From a virus (Duplodnaviria; Caudoviricetes), in the IMG/VR virus record IMGVR_UViG_3300021387_000299, positions 1 through 64,000 of that record: a stretch of 64,000 nt of DNA. One strand, written 5' to 3'. The notes under the pieces were generated by a model, which ran no database searches, was not told the origin of the DNA, and saw only the letters and a program-made list of their open reading frames with translations. Positions 2,276 through 58,506 of this stretch are shown piece after piece; the first letter of the stretch is position 1, and each line of letters starts with the position of its first letter. A program made the position numbers and the translations under genes.

Positions 2276-2712
2276 GGGGTTGTAATTGGAATTCGATTGG
2301 CATGTGGGGTCAAAATTTGCAGCGAGGTAGTGACTCTAACCACTAATTAAATTTAAACGCAAACTTTGTTAAAAATATTTTCGCAAAGATTAAGAATGTC
2401 TTTGCACCTTCCTATCAAGTAGCTTTAGCTTGCTAGTTAGAGTATAAAATAAAGTAAACGGATTAAACTGCGCCCGGCGCTTAATCCGATCGTATTAACG
2501 GGCTGCCGCAAATAAAAATGGAAAATGCGTAAACAATGGATGCCCATAAAGATAATGTGTTTCGCAAACGCATTGGAGTGTTGTGGCTACTCCATTATCC
2601 ATTTGGTTTCTTAAATACCAATTTGCGTAAGAAAAAATTTAAGTAAGCTGTGGATAAAGAAAATTGCGATAGTAGCATGAGCAAGACCGGGGTTCGACTC
2701 CCCGCAGCTCCA
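2276..2712 (+). ncRNA. ssrA: tmRNA; tag ANFVKNIFAKIKNVFAPSYQVALAC* (2359-2436)
   Basis: 5' GGGGTTGTAATTGGAATTCGA, 3' GACCGGGGTTCGACTCCCCGCAGCTCCA, G3:U70 Ala acceptor, resume codon GCA after TAAAC. Confidence 0.93.
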
Positions 2713-2821
2713 CTATATAGGGACGTTTGGTCTGGTCAAAGCCGTGGTACGTGGCTGTAAATAACGTATGGTGCCAAACATATATCAACTGTTGGTAGAA
2801 GGCTTGGTTGATATAGCATAT

Positions 2822-5109: not shown

Positions 5110-5185
5110 CTCCTCTTAGCTCAGTTGGATAGAGCACTGGTCTACGAAACCAGGTTTTGCATAGGTTCGAATCCTATAGAGGAGA
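5110..5185 (+). tRNA. tRNA-Arg(ACG)
   Basis: ctggt-ctACGaa-accag. Confidence 0.93.
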
Positions 5186-5213
5186 CTATTTATTATGTAG
5201 AAAGGAGGTTAAA

Positions 5214-5726
5214 ATGCAGATAACCGAGGATACTTTGTTCCGCAACATGTCGCAACAGAATATTACATTCGATATGATTGCTGATAAAATTGTTGAATGG
5301 ATAAACCAACAGCCAGATAGGGATTATGTTCTTGCTATTGGAACAGACTCTCAAACTTGCGCGGAAACTAAAGTAGTATTATCTATTACTTTACATCGGT
5401 TACATAATGGAGGAATTTTCTTTCTACATTCAACTTATCACAAAGCGTACAAACATAACCAGCTGCATCAGAAACTATATGAAGAGACTCAAGCATCTCT
5501 TGATGCCGCAGAGATTTTACTTGAAAAGTTAAAATTACGAGGTTTGGACATACAAGATAAATCTTCTAACGTCCATCTTTCAATTCATATGGATATTGGC
5601 GAGCACGGTCCAACTAGCAAATATATTCAAGAACTAGAGGGATGGGTTCGCGCAACAGGTTATGACTATGAGATTAAACCAAACTCATATGCCGCTTCAA
5701 CTATCGCTGATAAGTATTCAAAATAA
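5214..5726 (+). CDS. RNase H-like YkuK/DUF458 family protein
   Basis: LAIGTDSQ, IHMDIG, IKPNSYAASTIAD motifs; RBS aaggaggt gives start MQITE. Confidence 0.85.
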   Translation: MQITEDTLFRNMSQQNITFDMIADKIVEWINQQPDRDYVLAIGTDSQTCAETKVVLSITLHRLHNGGIFFLHSTYHKAYKHNQLHQKLYEETQASLDAAEILLEKLKLRGLDIQDKSSNVHLSIHMDIGEHGPTSKYIQELEGWVRATGYDYEIKPNSYAASTIADKYSK

Positions 5727-7023: not shown

Positions 7024-7075
7024 TTGAAAAATTAAAAAATAAATGATATAATATATATGTAAATAAGGAAAGGCA
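7024..7075 (+). promoter_or_regulatory. sigmaA promoter cassette, copy 1
   Basis: TTGAAA-17-TATAAT + atatatgtaa.taaggaaagg; near-identical to 7234-7285. Confidence 0.8.
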
Positions 7076-7233
7076 ATATATAAACGAGTTGATCGCCGGA
7101 GCGGTGTACCTCGCGCACGAGGTTATAGGAAAGAACTATGATACAACAGTACCCTTGAGGAATTAGCGCCCCTCACAATTCCGGACATAGAGAACGGGGA
7201 TCCGTGGAACGCACCAAAGCCTTATATCCTTAT

Positions 7234-7285
7234 TTGAAAAATTAAAAAAAATATTATATAATATATATGTAAGATAAGGAAAGGA
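7234..7285 (+). promoter_or_regulatory. sigmaA promoter cassette, copy 2
   Basis: TTGAAA-17-TATAAT + RBS. Confidence 0.8.
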
Positions 7286-7461: not shown

Positions 7462-7537
7462 AAGGCAGAAACAGCAAAAACTGAAAATTATTAATGGACT
7501 AGACTTGTAAACTATAAACCACAATAATTCTGCCTTG
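7462..7537 (+). ncRNA. ACAGCAAA-stem RNA, copy 1
   Basis: aaggcagaa-ACAGCAAA...ttctgcctt-g. Confidence 0.7.
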
Positions 7538-7543
7538 AAATTT

Positions 7544-7620
7544 GGTCTCGTAGCGCAAATGGTTAGAGTATCGCCTTGTCACGGCGAAGGTTGCGGGTTC
7601 GAGTCCCGTCGGGACCGCCA
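7544..7620 (+). tRNA. tRNA-Asp(GTC), second copy
   Basis: tcgcc-ttGTCac-ggcga; CCA. Confidence 0.95.
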
Positions 7621-7632
7621 TAAATATTTAAA

Positions 7633-7733
7633 AAGTCGCTTACAGCAAAAAATATTTAGTAGACAAAAGGTAAGTCATTAATCTGAAAAATTAAGAAATG
7701 TCGGTTCGAATCCGACCTAAATAAAGCGACTTG
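7633..7733 (+). ncRNA. ACAGCAAA-stem RNA, copy 2, enclosing a complete tRNA-Phe(GAA)-like cloverleaf (7653-7724)
   Basis: aagtcgctt-ACAGCAAA...aagcgactt-g; inner tatttag/ctaaata, ttaat-ctGAAaa-attaa, gtcgg-ttcgaat-ccgac. Confidence 0.8.
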
Positions 7734-7738
7734 CTTAT

Positions 7739-7811
7739 GCTGCCATCGAATAAGAGGTTAGTTCACAACCCTTTCAAGGTTGCAATACGGGTTCGAGTCC
7801 CGTTGGCAGTA
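7739..7811 (+). tRNA. tRNA-Glu(TTC)
   Basis: caacc-ctTTCaa-ggttg. Confidence 0.92.
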
Positions 7812-7844
7812 CTTAATTGGATTTACAGCTAGATCCAATTGCCT

Positions 7845-7921
7845 GGCGATATCGAATAATGGTTTAGTTCGCCACCCTCTCAAGGTGGAAATCGCGAGTT
7901 CGAATCTCCGTATCGTCACCA
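7845..7921 (+). tRNA. tRNA-Glu(CTC)
   Basis: ccacc-ctCTCaa-ggtgg; CCA. Confidence 0.9.
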
Positions 7922-7929
7922 TAACTTAA

Positions 7930-8049
7930 AAGACACGAACAGCAAACCATTAGGACTTTTAATCCCGATGTCGTAGGTTCGATTCCTACATTGTACGCCA
8001 AAACAGTACGATTAGCTCAAATGGTAGAGCGCGAGAAAAATGTGTCTTG
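7930..8049 (+). ncRNA. ACAGCAAA-stem RNA, copy 3, enclosing a circularly permuted tRNA-Lys(TTT) (YrlA-like architecture)
   Basis: aagacac...ACAGCAAA...gtgtctt-g; order is anticodon loop, T arm, acceptor 3' strand+CCA, linker, acceptor 5' strand, D arm. Confidence 0.8.
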
Positions 8050-8184
8050 ACAAGTAAATAAACGCGCAAACACATGGCGGGCAGAGCGTGCAGGGTCCAG
8101 CAAGCCTATGACAGCTAAGTAGATACTACTGGAACGAAGAAACCTCTATCGCGCGTGATCACTCTTAAATAGACCGCCACCAAC

Positions 8185-8255
8185 GCCGGATTAGTATAAT
8201 GGTATTACAGTTGACTTGTAATCATCTGATGGCAGTTCGATTCTGTCATTCGGCA
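8185..8255 (+). tRNA. tRNA-Thr(TGT)
   Basis: gttga-ctTGTaa-tcatc. Confidence 0.92.
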
Positions 8256-8463
8256 CTGACGCACAGAGGATAGATGAATAACTGTGGTTGTATGAAAATT
8301 CCTAGGTTCAATTCATATGATTAAGGAGCACTTCGTGTTCAATCTCTATCTAAAGGGTATAAACCTACCGGACATGGTGATTCTCCGGAGTCCGTGGCGT
8401 GCCCGCGGTATAAAATAATGGGCAATCCCGATGCTTGAAAGTAGAGCATCCTCACCACTCAAT

Positions 8464-8498
8464 AGGATAAGGATTCATTCCTTATCCTTTATTTTTTT
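8464..8498 (+). terminator. intrinsic terminator ending the tRNA array
   Basis: aggataagga/tccttatcct hairpin + T tract. Confidence 0.8.
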
Positions 8499-8522
8499 AT
8501 AAAATTATGGTATAATATAATT

Positions 8523-8750
8523 ATGAAAGATATAGAAAATATTATATGGATAAGAAACAAGATGAATTGCTCAATTCTTGACGCAAAAAAAGCCTATTAC
8601 TTTTGCGACGAGGATAAATTTTTAGCTTGCGCTTATTTAAAAGAAATTTATTATAGTCTTGGACACAACCCGCCTTGGACTAATGAACAATATAAAGAAA
8701 GGGCAAAAGAAAAATTAAATTATGATAAGAATAATAACATTCACCAATGA
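8523..8750 (+). CDS. small protein with EF-Ts N-terminal (UBA-like) motif
   Basis: IRNKMNCSILDAKKAY...D...A..YL resembles EF-Ts LRxxTGxGxxDCKKAL; leaderless after TGGTATAAT. Confidence 0.5.
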   Translation: MKDIENIIWIRNKMNCSILDAKKAYYFCDEDKFLACAYLKEIYYSLGHNPPWTNEQYKERAKEKLNYDKNNNIHQ

Positions 8751-9174
8751 TAATAATAAATTATTTGATTTTAATTTTAATAATCCTATAATAACTTACT
8801 ACCCAGAAACTGGGTGGACTAATATTACCGCAACAAAACAAACCATTACTATTTGCGGCAACTCTTTTTTAGGATATGATAAAGATCTTGTTCACACAAA
8901 TATTGATTCTAGTTTCTTTTCTCTTGGAAAGGACTGGATTGAAGAATTCTATGCGCAAGGTGATAAAATATTAATTATTTCTTCTCTCTCTGATGAACCT
9001 CTATTTATTTTCCATGGAGTTGCAATTCGCATTAGTAATATACAAAATGGTTATGCAGAGTTCACTGTAGATGATAAAAAAATCTATATAAATAATCTTC
9101 ACTGGATTATTATTTCGCGTAATGCATCCCCTGGCCAGCCTCAACGGCCGTTGCCGCCAAAAGATCGCCCATAG
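8722..9174 (+). CDS. hypothetical protein
   Basis: 150 aa ORF. Confidence 0.6.
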   Translation: MIRIITFTNDNNKLFDFNFNNPIITYYPETGWTNITATKQTITICGNSFLGYDKDLVHTNIDSSFFSLGKDWIEEFYAQGDKILIISSLSDEPLFIFHGVAIRISNIQNGYAEFTVDDKKIYINNLHWIIISRNASPGQPQRPLPPKDRP

Positions 9175-9248
9175 GAAATTTTTGAGCAAATATTTGAAAA
9201 TTATAAAAATTATGATATAATATAAAAGGTAAGGGAAATAAAATATAT

Positions 9249-9731
9249 ATGTTAAAAAAATATGGTGAAGGTTCGATGTATTTCTATGCTATTTCAGAAA
9301 CAAATAAAACAATAACTGGAGAACGTATTTATTGGCGAAATCCAGATACATTTACTCCAGATAAAAAACATAGAAATAAATACATAACATACATTTTATC
9401 TTTTTATGACATTAATGGTAACAAATTAAATTCTATAAAGGTTGGAAAAGCAAAAATTGGTTCTACTCGTTTTCAAAATTTATTAAATAAAAATAGAGTT
9501 CCTTCCAGTTATTATATTGTTATTGAATATGCAATATCTTTTACAGATGAAGAATTCGCTCTATCTACAGAAGGAGATCTCCGTTATTATTTCAGACGAT
9601 ATAAAGGAGGAGAAAAAGATGGAATGGATTATACAAAAAATGTAACATTTAATAATGAAGATAGGAAAGATCCAATGTTTAATTCTCTTATTCGTTCTAA
9701 TCTTTCTAAAATGTTCGCAGCAAAATATTAA
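9249..9731 (+). CDS. hypothetical protein, possible GIY-YIG/T5orf172-like nuclease
   Basis: TYILSFY...IKVGKA...R...E pattern; own promoter. Confidence 0.45.
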   Translation: MLKKYGEGSMYFYAISETNKTITGERIYWRNPDTFTPDKKHRNKYITYILSFYDINGNKLNSIKVGKAKIGSTRFQNLLNKNRVPSSYYIVIEYAISFTDEEFALSTEGDLRYYFRRYKGGEKDGMDYTKNVTFNNEDRKDPMFNSLIRSNLSKMFAAKY

Positions 9732-9736
9732 TTTAT

Positions 9737-9765
9737 TTGAAAAATAAAAAAATATATTATATAAT
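9737..9765 (+). promoter_or_regulatory. sigmaA promoter of the TROVE-like gene
   Basis: TTGAAA-17-TATAAT. Confidence 0.8.
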
Positions 9766-9783
9766 ATATATGTAAAGAAAAGA

Positions 9784-9848
9784 AAGACCCCAACAGCAAA
9801 ATTGCATGTTGTATGCGGAGGCCTCGTGGCGTCTTTAAATGGGTCTTG
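9784..9848 (+). promoter_or_regulatory. ACAGCAAA-stem RNA, copy 4 (5' leader abutting the RBS of the TROVE-like gene)
   Basis: aagaccc-ca-ACAGCAAA...gggtctt-g-aaaggag. Confidence 0.75.
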
Positions 9849-9863
9849 AAAGGAGAAAAAGGA

Positions 9864-11366
9864 ATGAGTACATTTTTAAACGCACTTCAGAATGAAACAA
9901 ATTTCACTTATACTGAAAATGGCGGCATTACTCATAAGACAACCAAGAGCGCATTGCTTGATATGTTTGCTATGGGTGCCGCTATGCGTAGTCGTTCTGA
10001 CGCAGACGTTATCCTTATGTTCCGCAATGCATATGCAGAAAATCCTACATATGCACTGAAGTGTCTCTTCTACATCAGAGACGTTCGTGGCGGACAGGGC
10101 GAACGTAGATTTTTCCGTCTTTGTATCAAGGATCTTGCTAAGCAGGATGCTGATGCAATGCGCAGAAATATTCAGAATATCCCTGAATATGGTCGCTGGG
10201 ATGACCTTTATGAACTTGTCAATACTCCAGTAGAAGGAGATATGTGGAAGTTCATGAAGCACCAGCTTGCTCTTGATACTCAGTCAAAGACACCTTCTCT
10301 GCTTGCAAAGTGGATGAAGTCTGAAAATACGTCTTCAAAGGAATCTCGTAGACTGGGTCGTCACACTCGCACACAGCTTCATATGACACCTCGTGAATAT
10401 AGAAAGACTCTTTCTATTCTTCGTGAGCGTATCAACGTTCTGGAAAGACTTATGAGTGCAGGCGAATGGGATAAGATCGAGTTCGATAAGATCCCTTCAA
10501 AGGCTGGTTTCATTTATAAGAATGCTTTCGCGCGCCACGACGTAGAGCGCATGAAGGCGGAAAAGAACGTTCAGTCATATCATGACTTCGTAAGAGATGA
10601 AACCAAGACTGTCAATGCTAAGGATCTCTATCCATATGAGATGGTTGCAAAGGCAATCTCTGCCTATGATCCCTACGATCGTTGGGGAGACTCTACCGAC
10701 AGAGCAGTTGTAAACAAGTACTGGAACAACTATATGCAGAGCTTTGATGACTTCAAGTTCAATGGCATCGCTGTTGTAGATACTTCTGGTTCTATGCGTT
10801 GGGCTGGTACTACTGTACATCCTATTGATGTAGCTATCTCACTTGGTATTTGTTGCGCGGAAAAGGCCCAGGGTCCTTTCCATGGACACTATATCTCTTT
10901 CGCTTCTCGTCCTCAGCTGATTAAGGTTGAAGGTGTTGACTTCGTTGACAAGGTTCAGAGAATCTATAAGACAAATCTTTGCGATAACACAAATATCGCA
11001 GGAGTATTTGATCTGCTTCTTAGTACTGCACTTAGAAATCACTGCGCACAGTCAGAGATTCCTGAGAATGTAGTTATTATCAGCGATATGGAGTTTGACT
11101 CTTGCTCAATTAGCTTCAGAAAGGCTAGAGCCGCAACAGAGCTGGAAAGAATTGCTCAGAAGTGGGCAGACAACGGCTATCAGATGCCTAACCTCATCTT
11201 CTGGAATGTAGACGCACGTCAGAACAACATTCCTGCGCTGGGTGAGAGAATCTCATATGTATCTGGTATGAGTCCTTCTATCTATCAGACAATCGCAACA
11301 GGCAAGACTGGTTACGATCTGATGATGGATAAGTTGAATTCTGCTCGTTACGATGCAGTAAAGTAA
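9864..11366 (+). CDS. DUF2828-family TROVE/Ro60-like protein with C-terminal vWA domain
   Basis: N-term TENG, RDVRGGQGER, YGRWDDL, LAKW; MIDAS DTSGS, ISDMEFD, IFWNV; RBS gives start MSTFL. Confidence 0.85.
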   Translation: MSTFLNALQNETNFTYTENGGITHKTTKSALLDMFAMGAAMRSRSDADVILMFRNAYAENPTYALKCLFYIRDVRGGQGERRFFRLCIKDLAKQDADAMRRNIQNIPEYGRWDDLYELVNTPVEGDMWKFMKHQLALDTQSKTPSLLAKWMKSENTSSKESRRLGRHTRTQLHMTPREYRKTLSILRERINVLERLMSAGEWDKIEFDKIPSKAGFIYKNAFARHDVERMKAEKNVQSYHDFVRDETKTVNAKDLYPYEMVAKAISAYDPYDRWGDSTDRAVVNKYWNNYMQSFDDFKFNGIAVVDTSGSMRWAGTTVHPIDVAISLGICCAEKAQGPFHGHYISFASRPQLIKVEGVDFVDKVQRIYKTNLCDNTNIAGVFDLLLSTALRNHCAQSEIPENVVIISDMEFDSCSISFRKARAATELERIAQKWADNGYQMPNLIFWNVDARQNNIPALGERISYVSGMSPSIYQTIATGKTGYDLMMDKLNSARYDAVK

Positions 11367-11376
11367 CAAAATTTTG

Positions 11377-11404
11377 GACGGTTTTCTATAAACCGTCTTT
11401 TTTT
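11377..11404 (+). terminator. intrinsic terminator
   Basis: gacggttt/aaaccgtc + T7. Confidence 0.85.
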
Positions 11405-58411: not shown

Positions 58412-58506
58412 TGGCGGGGGATGTAGGACTCGAACCCACACCCGCGGCTATGGACACCGCTACCCTGGTTTTGAAGACCAGTGTGCTACCATTACACTAA
58501 TCCCCC
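58412..58506 (-). tRNA. opal suppressor tRNA(UCA), Trp-like body with a 25-nt extra arm
   Basis: Reverse complement: gggggat-ta-gtgt-aatggta-gcac-a-ctggt-ctTCAaa-accag-[25 nt]-gtggg-ttcgagt-cctac-atccccc-g-cca. Confidence 0.93.

What the first reader, a model, noticed from the sequence alone, without database searches (positions are those of the whole stretch)
7462..11366. Candidate phage Ro60/Y-RNA-like system: four covarying ACAGCAAA-stem RNAs plus a TROVE-like DUF2828 protein
Seen: four elements share AAG-[stem]-(0-2 nt)-ACAGCAAA...[stem']-CTTG. Their closing stems differ in sequence but all pair: aaggcagaa/ttctgcctt (7462-7536), aagtcgctt/aagcgactt (7633-7732), aagacac/gtgtctt (7930-8048) and aagaccc/gggtctt (9784-9847). 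Three sit between tRNAs and carry tRNA-derived cargo (an anticodon-like hairpin, a whole tRNA-Phe, a permuted tRNA-Lys). The fourth lies between the promoter and the RBS of the DUF2828/vWA gene. Known: Ro60 (TROVE+vWA) proteins bind the terminal stem of Y RNAs, and bacterial YrlA RNAs are encoded near Ro and carry tRNA-like modules. Inference: ACAGCAAA-stem is the binding handle of this TROVE-like protein, which autoregulates through its leader and displays interchangeable tRNA mimics, e.g. as decoys for host anticodon nucleases or for tRNA repair/quality control. The handle does not match the canonical Y-RNA stem.
Basis: partly seen in the sequence, partly recalled or inferred. Interest (0 to 1): 0.93.

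Follow-up and report, generated by a model that had tools for sequence, protein, structure and literature searches.

The report
Phage Ro60-like protein with handle RNAs
A 178-kb phage encodes a protein predicted to fold like the RNA-binding ring Ro60, plus small RNAs among its tRNA genes that share one conserved "handle" and carry tRNA look-alikes; the same pairing sits in very different phages, including laboratory ones, and I found no published description of the RNAs.

Summary
All four elements are at the stated coordinates. Each has a 7-9 bp closing stem that differs in sequence, ACAGCAAA exactly 9 nt from the first paired base, and a G after the 3' strand. Two more copies lie elsewhere in the genome.

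The DUF2828+DUF7788 protein does not hit Pfam TROVE. Its model (pLDDT 85) matches Ro60 over its full length (Z 23.3 to 1YVP) and keeps an intact MIDAS motif.

The handle RNAs and the gene co-occur in both directions:
- A strict descriptor gives 153 hits on the gene strand, 7 on the opposite strand and 8 in shuffled sequence.
- Of blind pattern hits in viral contigs, 7 of 7 with a closing stem lie in records with the gene, against 1 of 41 without a stem.
- A covariance model hits 27 of 28 gene-positive phage genomes and 0 of 25 gene-negative records.

The handle also flanks the gene in Listeria, Mycobacterium, E. coli, Campylobacter and Bacillus phages. The cargo is often a whole tRNA or a YrlA-type permuted tRNA.

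My reading is a divergent Ro60/Y-RNA-type particle. Binding, autoregulation and the decoy role are untested. This scan has reported the same system before on other phage DNA.

The parts
7234..7262 (+). sigma-70-like promoter heading the tRNA / handle-RNA operon
   Evidence: 11 of 12 consensus match, TTGAAA-17-TATAAT.
7462..7537 (+). handle RNA 1: 9-bp closing stem, ACAGCAAA, short cargo
   Evidence: Sequence and fold. Best match of model R1 in this genome, 50.9 bits. It lies between tRNA-Ile and tRNA-Asp.
7633..7733 (+). handle RNA 2: 9-bp closing stem enclosing a complete tRNA-Phe(GAA)-like cloverleaf (7653-7724) with no encoded CCA
   Evidence: Aragorn, Rfam tRNA 64.7 bits, R1 39 bits. Orthologous copies in L001 and L002 have the same stem.
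7930..8049 (+). handle RNA 3: 8-bp closing stem enclosing a circularly permuted tRNA-Lys(UUU)-like module (YrlA type)
   Evidence: Rfam YrlA 33.2 bits, full length, below the gathering score. Arm-by-arm dissection.
8464..8488 (+). terminator-like hairpin ending the tRNA / ncRNA operon
   Evidence: 10-bp stem followed by a T run.
9737..9765 (+). sigma-70-like promoter of the Ro60-like gene
   Evidence: 11 of 12 match. The -10 hexamer ends 18 nt before handle RNA 4.
9784..9848 (+). handle RNA 4: leader copy, whose 3' strand ends next to the AGGAG ribosome-binding site
   Evidence: Sequence, fold, R1 29.8 bits. Leader copies recur in 13 of 67 distinct related loci.
9864..11366 (+). gene for a 500-aa DUF2828 + DUF7788 protein with a predicted Ro60-like ring plus a vWA domain
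   Evidence: Pfam PF11443 and PF25043; PHROG 850; invariant DxSxS, T and D of the MIDAS motif. AF2 model pLDDT 85. Foldseek top 13 hits are all Ro60. Z 23.3 to 1yvp_A.
11376..11398 (+). terminator-like hairpin after the gene
   Evidence: 9-bp stem followed by a T run.

Best explanation
This is a divergent phage version of the Ro60/Y-RNA particle.

Shown:
- The phage encodes a ring-plus-vWA protein of Ro60 fold.
- It encodes at least six small RNA genes sharing a handle: a covarying 7-9 bp terminal stem, ACAGCAA(A/U) 9 nt from the stem base, an A-rich 3' side, and a G after the stem.
- The RNAs sit like tRNA genes inside tRNA operons or at the start of transcription units.

Inferred:
- The RNAs are freed by the tRNA-processing enzymes that cut the neighbouring tRNAs, or they start at the promoter.
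- The protein binds the handle, as Ro60 binds the conserved stem of Y RNAs.
- The variable cargo (whole tRNA, permuted tRNA, anticodon- or T-arm-like hairpins) brings tRNA-recognising partners to the ring. Candidates are nucleases, repair enzymes such as the phage's own RtcB, or exoribonucleases, as in the Ro60-Y RNA-PNPase machine.
- Where a copy lies in the gene's leader next to the ribosome-binding site, binding could feed back on translation.
For: Protein:
- Foldseek's 13 best PDB hits are all Ro60/TROVE structures over the full length.
- VIA-align gives Z 23.3, 389 aligned residues, model 9-482 against chain 10-535 of 1yvp_A. vWA-only hits score about Z 11.
- The MIDAS residues are invariant in 30 homologs.

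RNA family:
- 153 hits on the gene strand, 7 opposite and 8 shuffled.
- 65 of 84 exact motifs have a stem, against 14% after shuffling.
- 52 distinct stem sequences all obey the 9-nt rule.

Linkage:
- In 9 whole phage genomes there are 63 same-strand hits and 6 opposite. Nearly all lie from -26 kb to +2 kb of the gene start.
- Blind pattern scan: 7 of 7 stem-bearing hits lie in records with the gene, against 1 of 41 stemless hits.
- Model R1 hits 27 of 28 gene-positive genomes, including all 15 that gave no training sequence, and 0 of 25 gene-negative records.
- The handle lies beside the gene in Listeria AG20, mycobacteriophage Faith1 (no tRNA in the 11 kb around it), E. coli wV8, Campylobacter F336 and Bacillus Skywalker.

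Cargo and context:
- 17 elements carry the T arm, closed acceptor, D arm order typical of YrlA, and 16 carry whole tRNAs.
- The genome encodes RtcB.
- In the Listeria phage CKA15, the homolog's best HHpred match was Rsr, and highly transcribed non-coding regions lie within 2 kb upstream (PMC12282133).
Against: - No binding data exist. Co-occurrence and fold do not prove that this protein binds these RNAs.
- The Pfam TROVE model does not hit the protein, and sequence or profile searches of the PDB are empty.
- The handle lacks the known Ro-binding motifs GGUCCGA and GNCGAAN0-1G (PMC4201824).
- The best YrlA score, 33 bits, is far below the gathering score of 69, and that model also rings on plain tRNAs in control genomes.
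- The gene-positive genomes are related to one another, so the counts are not independent events.
- Expression as discrete RNAs is not shown for this phage.
Confidence: 0.7

Rival explanations
1. The handle RNAs are real, but another factor binds them: a host or phage RNA-binding protein, or a processing enzyme. The Ro60-like gene would then be only a conserved neighbour in the same 'RNA module' of the genome.
For: - The Dictyostelium Class I RNAs have a very similar handle: pattern GTTGRCCTTACAGCAA ... GTCAACTG (PMC5054030).
- They are reported to bind an RRM protein, Rnp1A (PMC7919456).
- No binding is shown here.
Against: - The Ro60-like gene is the only neighbour shared across Listeria, Mycobacterium, E. 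coli, Campylobacter and Bacillus phage loci.
- 7 of 7 against 1 of 41, and 27 of 28 against 0 of 25.
- Ro60 proteins are known partners of end-paired RNAs encoded beside them.
Confidence: 0.12
2. The elements are mainly cis-acting or substrate RNAs: leaders that control the gene, or tRNA-like precursors that the ring protein inspects or degrades. On this reading they are not stable partner RNAs.
For: - Copy 4 and 13 of 67 related loci place an element just before the ribosome-binding site.
- Ro60 also binds misfolded RNAs (PDB 2i91 and 9nep titles).
Against: - Most copies are not in leaders. They lie up to 26 kb away inside tRNA operons.
- In Faith1 all three copies lie downstream of the gene.
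Confidence: 0.08
3. The handle is a maturation signal for unusual tRNA genes, caged or permuted, that end up as working tRNAs.
For: - Copy 2 is a good cloverleaf (64.7 bits).
- Six of 17 permuted modules keep NCCA at the start of the acceptor loop.
Against: - About half of the elements carry no tRNA-sized cargo; some are as short as 34-60 nt.
- Anticodons differ between orthologous copies: GAA, AUA and AAA in L010, L011 and L015.
- A normal tRNA-Phe already exists at 2822-2897.
Confidence: 0.05
4. The elements are chance inverted repeats or a small mobile element with terminal inverted repeats.
For: The genome is AT-rich, and generic 7-bp stems are common (half of the 1-mismatch motifs had one).
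Against: - Strand bias of 153 to 7, a fixed 9-nt spacing, and stems that differ in sequence yet pair.
- Conservation across phages of different bacterial phyla.
- Transposase-recognised ends would be conserved in sequence, not only in pairing.
Confidence: 0.02

Closest known systems
Ro60 (Rsr) with Y RNAs, especially bacterial and phage YrlA (Rfam RF02553; PMC4201824) and Thermus phage phiLo Ro60 with Yrl1/Yrl2 (PMC12135203; PDB 9KOP, 9L5Y)
   Same: - A ring of helical repeats plus a vWA domain with MIDAS.
- RNAs encoded beside the gene on the same strand, with 5' and 3' ends paired in a stem and a conserved motif on the 5' side.
- At least one RNA per genome with a tRNA-like module in the order T arm, closed acceptor, D arm.
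- An RNA-repair gene (RtcB) in the same genome, as in the Salmonella rsr-yrlBA-rtcBA operon.
   Different: - The protein is about 10% identical to Ro60 and is not found by Pfam TROVE.
- The handle motif is ACAGCAA(A/U) at a fixed 9 nt from the stem base, not GGUCCGA or GNCGAA.
- There are 3 to 14 RNAs per genome, embedded in tRNA arrays.
- The cargo includes whole tRNAs and permuted tRNAs that keep an anticodon arm.
- Binding has not been shown.
Class I (type-I) RNAs of dictyostelid amoebae (PMC7919456; search pattern in PMC5054030)
   Same: - A short covarying stem joining the 5' and 3' ends.
- A conserved motif ending in ACAGCAA next to the 5' strand. 6 bp plus 3 nt gives the same 9-nt spacing.
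- A variable body, a G close after the 3' strand, and many clustered genes.
   Different: - They are eukaryotic, 42-65 nt long, and carry an extra U before the 3' G.
- The reported direct binder is an RRM protein (Rnp1A).
- I did not test whether dictyostelids encode a DUF2828 protein.
- The authors report the class as unique to Dictyostelia; the outgroup searches they describe do not mention phages.
Annotated phage 'Ro-like RNA binding protein' / PHROG 850 'RNA-binding protein' (DUF2828 family), including CKA15_055 of a P100-like Listeria phage (PMC12282133)
   Same: The same protein family: 29-39% identity over the full length in 711 cultured phage records. The Listeria paper notes a best HHpred match to Rsr and abundant ncRNA regions upstream, and speculates about Y RNAs.
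   Different: In what I read, no RNA motif, structure or family is defined, and the protein-RNA pairing has not been tested.

Membership tests
Ro60 / TROVE protein family | Ring of HEAT-like helical repeats followed by a vWA domain, in one chain of about 500 aa | tested here: met
   AF2 model pLDDT 85, pTM 0.84. Full-length matches to Ro60 only. Z 23.3, rmsd 3.7, 389 residues aligned to 1yvp_A.
Ro60 / TROVE protein family | MIDAS motif (DxSxS ... T ... D) in the vWA domain | tested here: met
   D306, S308, S310, T376 and D408 are invariant in 30 homologs.
Ro60 / TROVE protein family | Recognised by the Pfam TROVE model (PF05731) or by sequence similarity to solved Ro60 proteins | tested here: not met
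   No TROVE hit at E up to 1. PF05731 is absent from the whole genome while the controls ring. phmmer and profile searches of the PDB are empty.
Y RNA (general) | 5' and 3' ends paired in a terminal stem, with the gene next to the Ro gene on the same strand | tested here: met
Y RNA (general) | Conserved Ro-binding motif GGUCCGA (animals) or GNCGAAN0-1G (bacteria) in the stem | tested here: not met
   The conserved motif is ACAGCAA(A/U). The known motifs are quoted from PMC4201824.
Y RNA (general) | Physical binding to the Ro protein | not testable with these tools
   Needs pull-down, gel shift or a solved structure.
YrlA (Rfam RF02553) | Score at or above the gathering threshold of 69 bits | tested here: not met
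   The best score in the window is 33.2 bits. Related genomes give 29-39 bits.
YrlA (Rfam RF02553) | tRNA-like module in the order T arm, closed acceptor stem, D arm | tested here: met
   Copy 3 and 16 other elements, including ones in Faith1, wV8 and Skywalker.
Dictyostelid Class I RNA | Short terminal stem plus an 11-nt motif ending ACAGCAA next to the 5' strand | tested here: inconclusive
   The published pattern (PMC5054030) fits the phage handle in motif and 9-nt spacing. No amoeba sequence was compared, and the 3' end differs by one U.

The most novel reading that the evidence does not exclude
The ACAGCAA handle is the recognition element of the whole DUF2828 branch of Ro60-like proteins, in phages and in eukaryotes alike. 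If so, the orphan Class I RNAs of dictyostelid amoebae are the eukaryotic members of the same RNA-protein particle. In phages, the interchangeable tRNA-shaped cargo would then serve to bait or tether host tRNA-targeting defence nucleases or tRNA-repair enzymes.
Probability: 0.15. Interest if true: 0.93.

Novelty: new variant of a known kind. Interest (0 to 1): 0.8.

Why it matters
Ro60/Y-RNA particles are known from animals, bacteria and a few phages, and their function is still debated. This would add a second, much larger phage branch. More than 8000 protein clusters matched in the first search, and 711 cultured phage records carry the gene, among them Felix O1-type, P100/A511-type, KVP40-type and mycobacteriophages.

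The branch has its own RNA handle, several RNAs per genome and modular tRNA-shaped cargo. Because it sits in easily handled laboratory phages, the open question of what a Ro ring does with tRNA mimics becomes directly testable by knock-out, pull-down and plating on defence-carrying hosts.

It also gives a name to unannotated gaps in many phage tRNA regions, and a possible relative for the unexplained Class I RNAs of amoebae.

Tried and rejected
- Rfam at gathering and at permissive thresholds gave nothing for copies 1, 2 (beyond its tRNA) and 4, nor for the Listeria, Faith1 and wV8 copies.
- Megablast of the region against cultured phages found no match.
- A generic '7-bp stem within 300 nt' test is useless in this AT-rich DNA. 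Half of the 1-mismatch motifs pass on either strand, so I added the AG/CU stem base, the 3' G and shuffled controls.
- The 14-base pattern alone is mostly noise in viral contigs: 73 of 80 hits have no stem. That noise served as the negative set.
- I did not run the count of structure pairs on the aligned elements. They were chosen for pairing, so the count would be circular.
- Phage T5 (first 50 kb, 25 tRNAs, no homolog by tblastn) has no element in its tRNA array. This is only one negative control.
- The leader copy as a general rule is rejected: 13 of 67.
- A search for fused or longer forms of the protein found none.
- I could not read Avesson 2011 or Aspegren 2004, so the other Class I RNA-binding proteins remain unknown to me.
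- I could not check a Dictyostelium DUF2828 gene. The Atlas only shows that the family includes eukaryotes.


Full report
**Setting**

The window is the first 64 kb of a 177,819-bp virus record of 34% G+C. Its first 8.3 kb hold 22 tRNA genes and a tmRNA. The tRNA region continues across the contig end, with five more tRNAs at 170-174 kb.

**The observation**

Each has:
- a terminal stem of 7-9 bp that differs in sequence between copies;
- ACAGCAAA;
- a variable body;
- the complementary strand, then a G.

RNAfold closes all four with that stem. Copies 1-3 fill the gaps between tRNA genes.

- Copy 2 encloses a complete tRNA-Phe-like cloverleaf (Aragorn; Rfam tRNA 64.7 bits).
- Copy 3 is a circularly permuted tRNA. 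It runs anticodon hairpin (loop CUUUUAA), T arm, a 7-bp acceptor stem closed by a loop beginning GCCA, then D arm. It is the one element that the Rfam YrlA model picks up, at 33.2 bits and well under the gathering score of 69.
- Copy 4 starts 18 nt after the -10 hexamer of an 11/12 promoter match. Its 3' strand ends next to the AGGAG of the gene.
- Two more copies lie at 170380-170446 and 172296-172440 of the same genome. Each follows a promoter-like TATA-rich stretch and precedes a tRNA.

**Is it more than chance?**

ACAGCAAA alone is not remarkable: 7 against 3.4 expected. In this AT-rich DNA a generic 7-bp stem is easy to find. I therefore used three tests that do not presuppose the answer.

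1. In 80 loci fetched through the protein, the 8-mer occurs 84 times on the gene strand and 15 times on the other. Of the 84, 65 have a stem of at least 7 bp followed by G. The rate is 14% when the downstream 300 nt are shuffled, and 2 of 15 on the other strand.
2. A strict descriptor asks for an N-A-G-R stem base, a gap of 0-3 nt, the motif with at most one mismatch, and Y-C-U-N'-G. It gives 153 hits on the gene strand, 7 on the other and 8 in shuffled sequence.
3. 52 elements with different stem sequences all place ACAGCAA exactly 9 nt from the first paired base.

The family is real, and the stems covary.

**The protein**

Pfam sees DUF2828 and DUF7788, with only a faint vWA hit and no TROVE. 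PHROGs calls the family 'RNA-binding protein'. Sequence and profile searches of the PDB are empty.

An alignment of 30 homologs down to 44% identity keeps DxSxS, T and D of a MIDAS site invariant. The AlphaFold2 model is confident, with pLDDT 85.2 and pTM 0.84.
- Foldseek's 13 best PDB hits are all Ro60/TROVE structures aligned over the whole chain.
- VIA-align gives Z 23.3 to Xenopus Ro60 bound to Y RNA (1yvp_A), with 389 residues aligned and model 9-482 on chain 10-535. Hits that match only the vWA domain stay near Z 11.
- The genome has no canonical TROVE gene, while the control genomes ring.

The protein is therefore a distant structural relative of Ro60 with the same two-domain order.

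**Linkage of RNA and protein**

From protein to RNA: in nine whole phage genomes carrying the gene, the strict descriptor finds 63 elements on the gene strand and 6 on the other. Nearly all lie between 26 kb upstream and 2 kb downstream of the gene start.

From RNA to protein: a blind scan of viral contigs with a 14-base 5' pattern returned 80 loci.
- Seven had the closing stem, and all seven records encode a homolog (E 1e-139 to 1e-257).
- Of 41 searched records whose hit lacked the stem, one had a weak homolog.
- By my arithmetic, Fisher's exact test gives about 1e-7.

A covariance model built from 33 short elements with only the 7-bp stem as structure hit 27 of 28 gene-positive genomes. That includes all 15 that contributed no training sequence. 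It hit none of 25 gene-negative viral records of 38-158 kb. The positive genomes are related to each other, so these are not independent trials, but the contrast is clear.

**Breadth**

tblastn finds full-length homologs (29-39% identity) in 711 cultured phage records: Felixounavirus, Listeria Pecentumvirus, mycobacteriophages (annotated 'Ro-like RNA binding protein'), and Bacillus, Enterococcus, Staphylococcus, Vibrio, Aeromonas and Campylobacter phages.

In the loci I fetched, the handle is next to the gene:
- three copies just upstream in Listeria phage AG20, behind a TTGACA promoter;
- three just downstream in Faith1, with no tRNA gene in the 11 kb around them;
- three or more in the tRNA array after the gene in wV8;
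- two between the tRNA array and the gene in Campylobacter phage F336;
- three in the tRNA array before the gene in Bacillus phage Skywalker.

The stem base differs by lineage (AAGAC, AGACC, UGGAC, AGGAA). The motif, the 9-nt spacing and the 3' G hold throughout. The Ro60-like gene is the only neighbour these loci share. Faith1 shows that the tie is to the gene, not to tRNA arrays. Phage T5, with 25 tRNAs and no homolog in its first 50 kb, has no element in its array.

**Cargo**

Among the non-redundant elements:
- 16 enclose a normal-order tRNA found by Aragorn. Anticodons differ even between orthologous copies.
- 17 enclose the permuted order T arm, closed acceptor, D arm. These include the copies in Faith1, wV8 and Skywalker.
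- Six of the 17 keep NCCA at the start of the acceptor loop. This fits an origin from the junction of two tandem tRNA genes (my inference).
- Short elements are enriched for hairpins with a 7-nt loop of the form Y-U-NNN-R-N: 25 of 80, against 6.8 ± 2.1 in shuffles. These loops are anticodon- or T-loop-like.

A tRNA-like module in at least one RNA per genome is the hallmark that Chen et al. reported for bacterial Y RNAs (PMC4201824).

**How it most likely works**

Shown: the fold, the RNA family and their tight co-occurrence.

Inferred:
- The RNAs are cut out by the enzymes that process the flanking tRNAs, or they start at promoters.
- The ring binds the handle.
- The cargo tethers tRNA-recognising partners.

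The genome's own RtcB ligase at 162.1-163.2 kb, and the RtcB and RNA ligase genes just after the Listeria homolog, echo the Salmonella rsr-yrlBA-rtcBA operon (PMC7790460). They point to tRNA damage and repair as the arena.

A decoy role against anticodon nucleases is possible but rests on nothing measured. Feedback through the leader is plausible for this phage, because the stem ends next to the ribosome-binding site. It cannot be general, since only 13 of 67 distinct upstream regions have a leader copy.

**What is known**

Ro60 with Y RNAs in phages is established for canonical TROVE proteins (PMC4201824, PMC7824862). It is established in most detail for Thermus phage phiLo, whose two Yrl RNAs lie upstream of the gene and carry a CGAA motif (PMC12135203).

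For the DUF2828 branch I found only annotations, plus one discussion. In the P100-like phage CKA15, the homolog's best HHpred match was Rsr and the protein was detected in purified virions. Three very abundant non-coding regions lie within 2 kb upstream, and the authors say they 'may be Y RNAs' (PMC12282133). In the related AG20, three TTGAC-type promoters sit at about 4007, 4425 and 5611 of locus L158, all within 2 kb of the gene. The last heads the three handle RNAs. Whether it is one of the three abundant regions is my inference, not a mapped result.

No paper or Rfam family that I could find defines the handle.

**A lead from earlier notes of this scan**

Earlier notes pointed to the Class I RNAs of dictyostelid amoebae. 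The literature bears out the resemblance. The published search pattern is GTTGRCCTTACAGCAA, then a gap, then GTCAACTG (PMC5054030). That is a 6-bp stem, 3 nt, ACAGCAA at 9 nt, and a G two bases after the stem. The class is described as a covarying terminal stem plus an 11-nt motif and a variable body, and as unique to Dictyostelia (PMC7919456).

I could not test whether those amoebae have a DUF2828 protein. The family does include eukaryotes.

**Verdict**

- The Ro60/Y-RNA-like reading is supported by fold, anatomy and co-occurrence.
- Binding and function are untested.
- This scan has reported the same system on many other phage genomes.
- It is a new variant of a known kind of particle, with a previously undefined RNA family, present in standard laboratory phages.

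Noticed in passing
window 2276-2715 (+) and 58412-58506 (-): The phage encodes a tmRNA (Rfam 62.6 bits, gathering score 47). It also has a long-armed tRNA with anticodon UCA that Aragorn calls tRNA-SeC. This may be a TGA suppressor, which would fit first-reader notes of in-frame TGAs in some genes.
   Followed up: no
window 7053-7233, 8050-8184 and 8257-8463: These are promoter-led or operon-internal stretches with no ORF and no Rfam match, and they are more G+C-rich than the genome. They are probably further small RNAs of unknown kind, lying between the handle RNAs and the operon terminator at 8464-8488.
   Followed up: no
G000 162127-163224 (+), outside the window: An RtcB RNA ligase gene (PF01139, 165 bits) lies about 8 kb before the first handle RNA of the tRNA region.
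   Followed up: partly
L158 (Listeria phage AG20) 4040-4340 and 4450-5030: Two more non-coding stretches, each behind a TTGAC-N17-TATA promoter, lie upstream of the Ro60-like gene. They have no ACAGCAA handle and no Rfam hit. The second probably corresponds to CKA15_059-061, reported as the most abundant phage transcript (PMC12282133).
   Followed up: partly
L165 (phage T5) 30284-33949 and 40848-41566: The T5 record annotates eight 'stable RNAs with unknown functions', some of them tRNA-like, inside its tRNA region. None has the handle, and no DUF2828 homolog lies in the first 50 kb.
   Followed up: partly
PMC12282133, Table 1: The Listeria phage homolog CKA15_055 was detected in purified virions with 57% sequence coverage. 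The protein may therefore be packaged.
   Followed up: no
window 5157-5726 (+): A protein with a strong RNaseH_like (PF04308) match (145 bits) is encoded directly after tRNA-Arg, inside the tRNA region.
   Followed up: no
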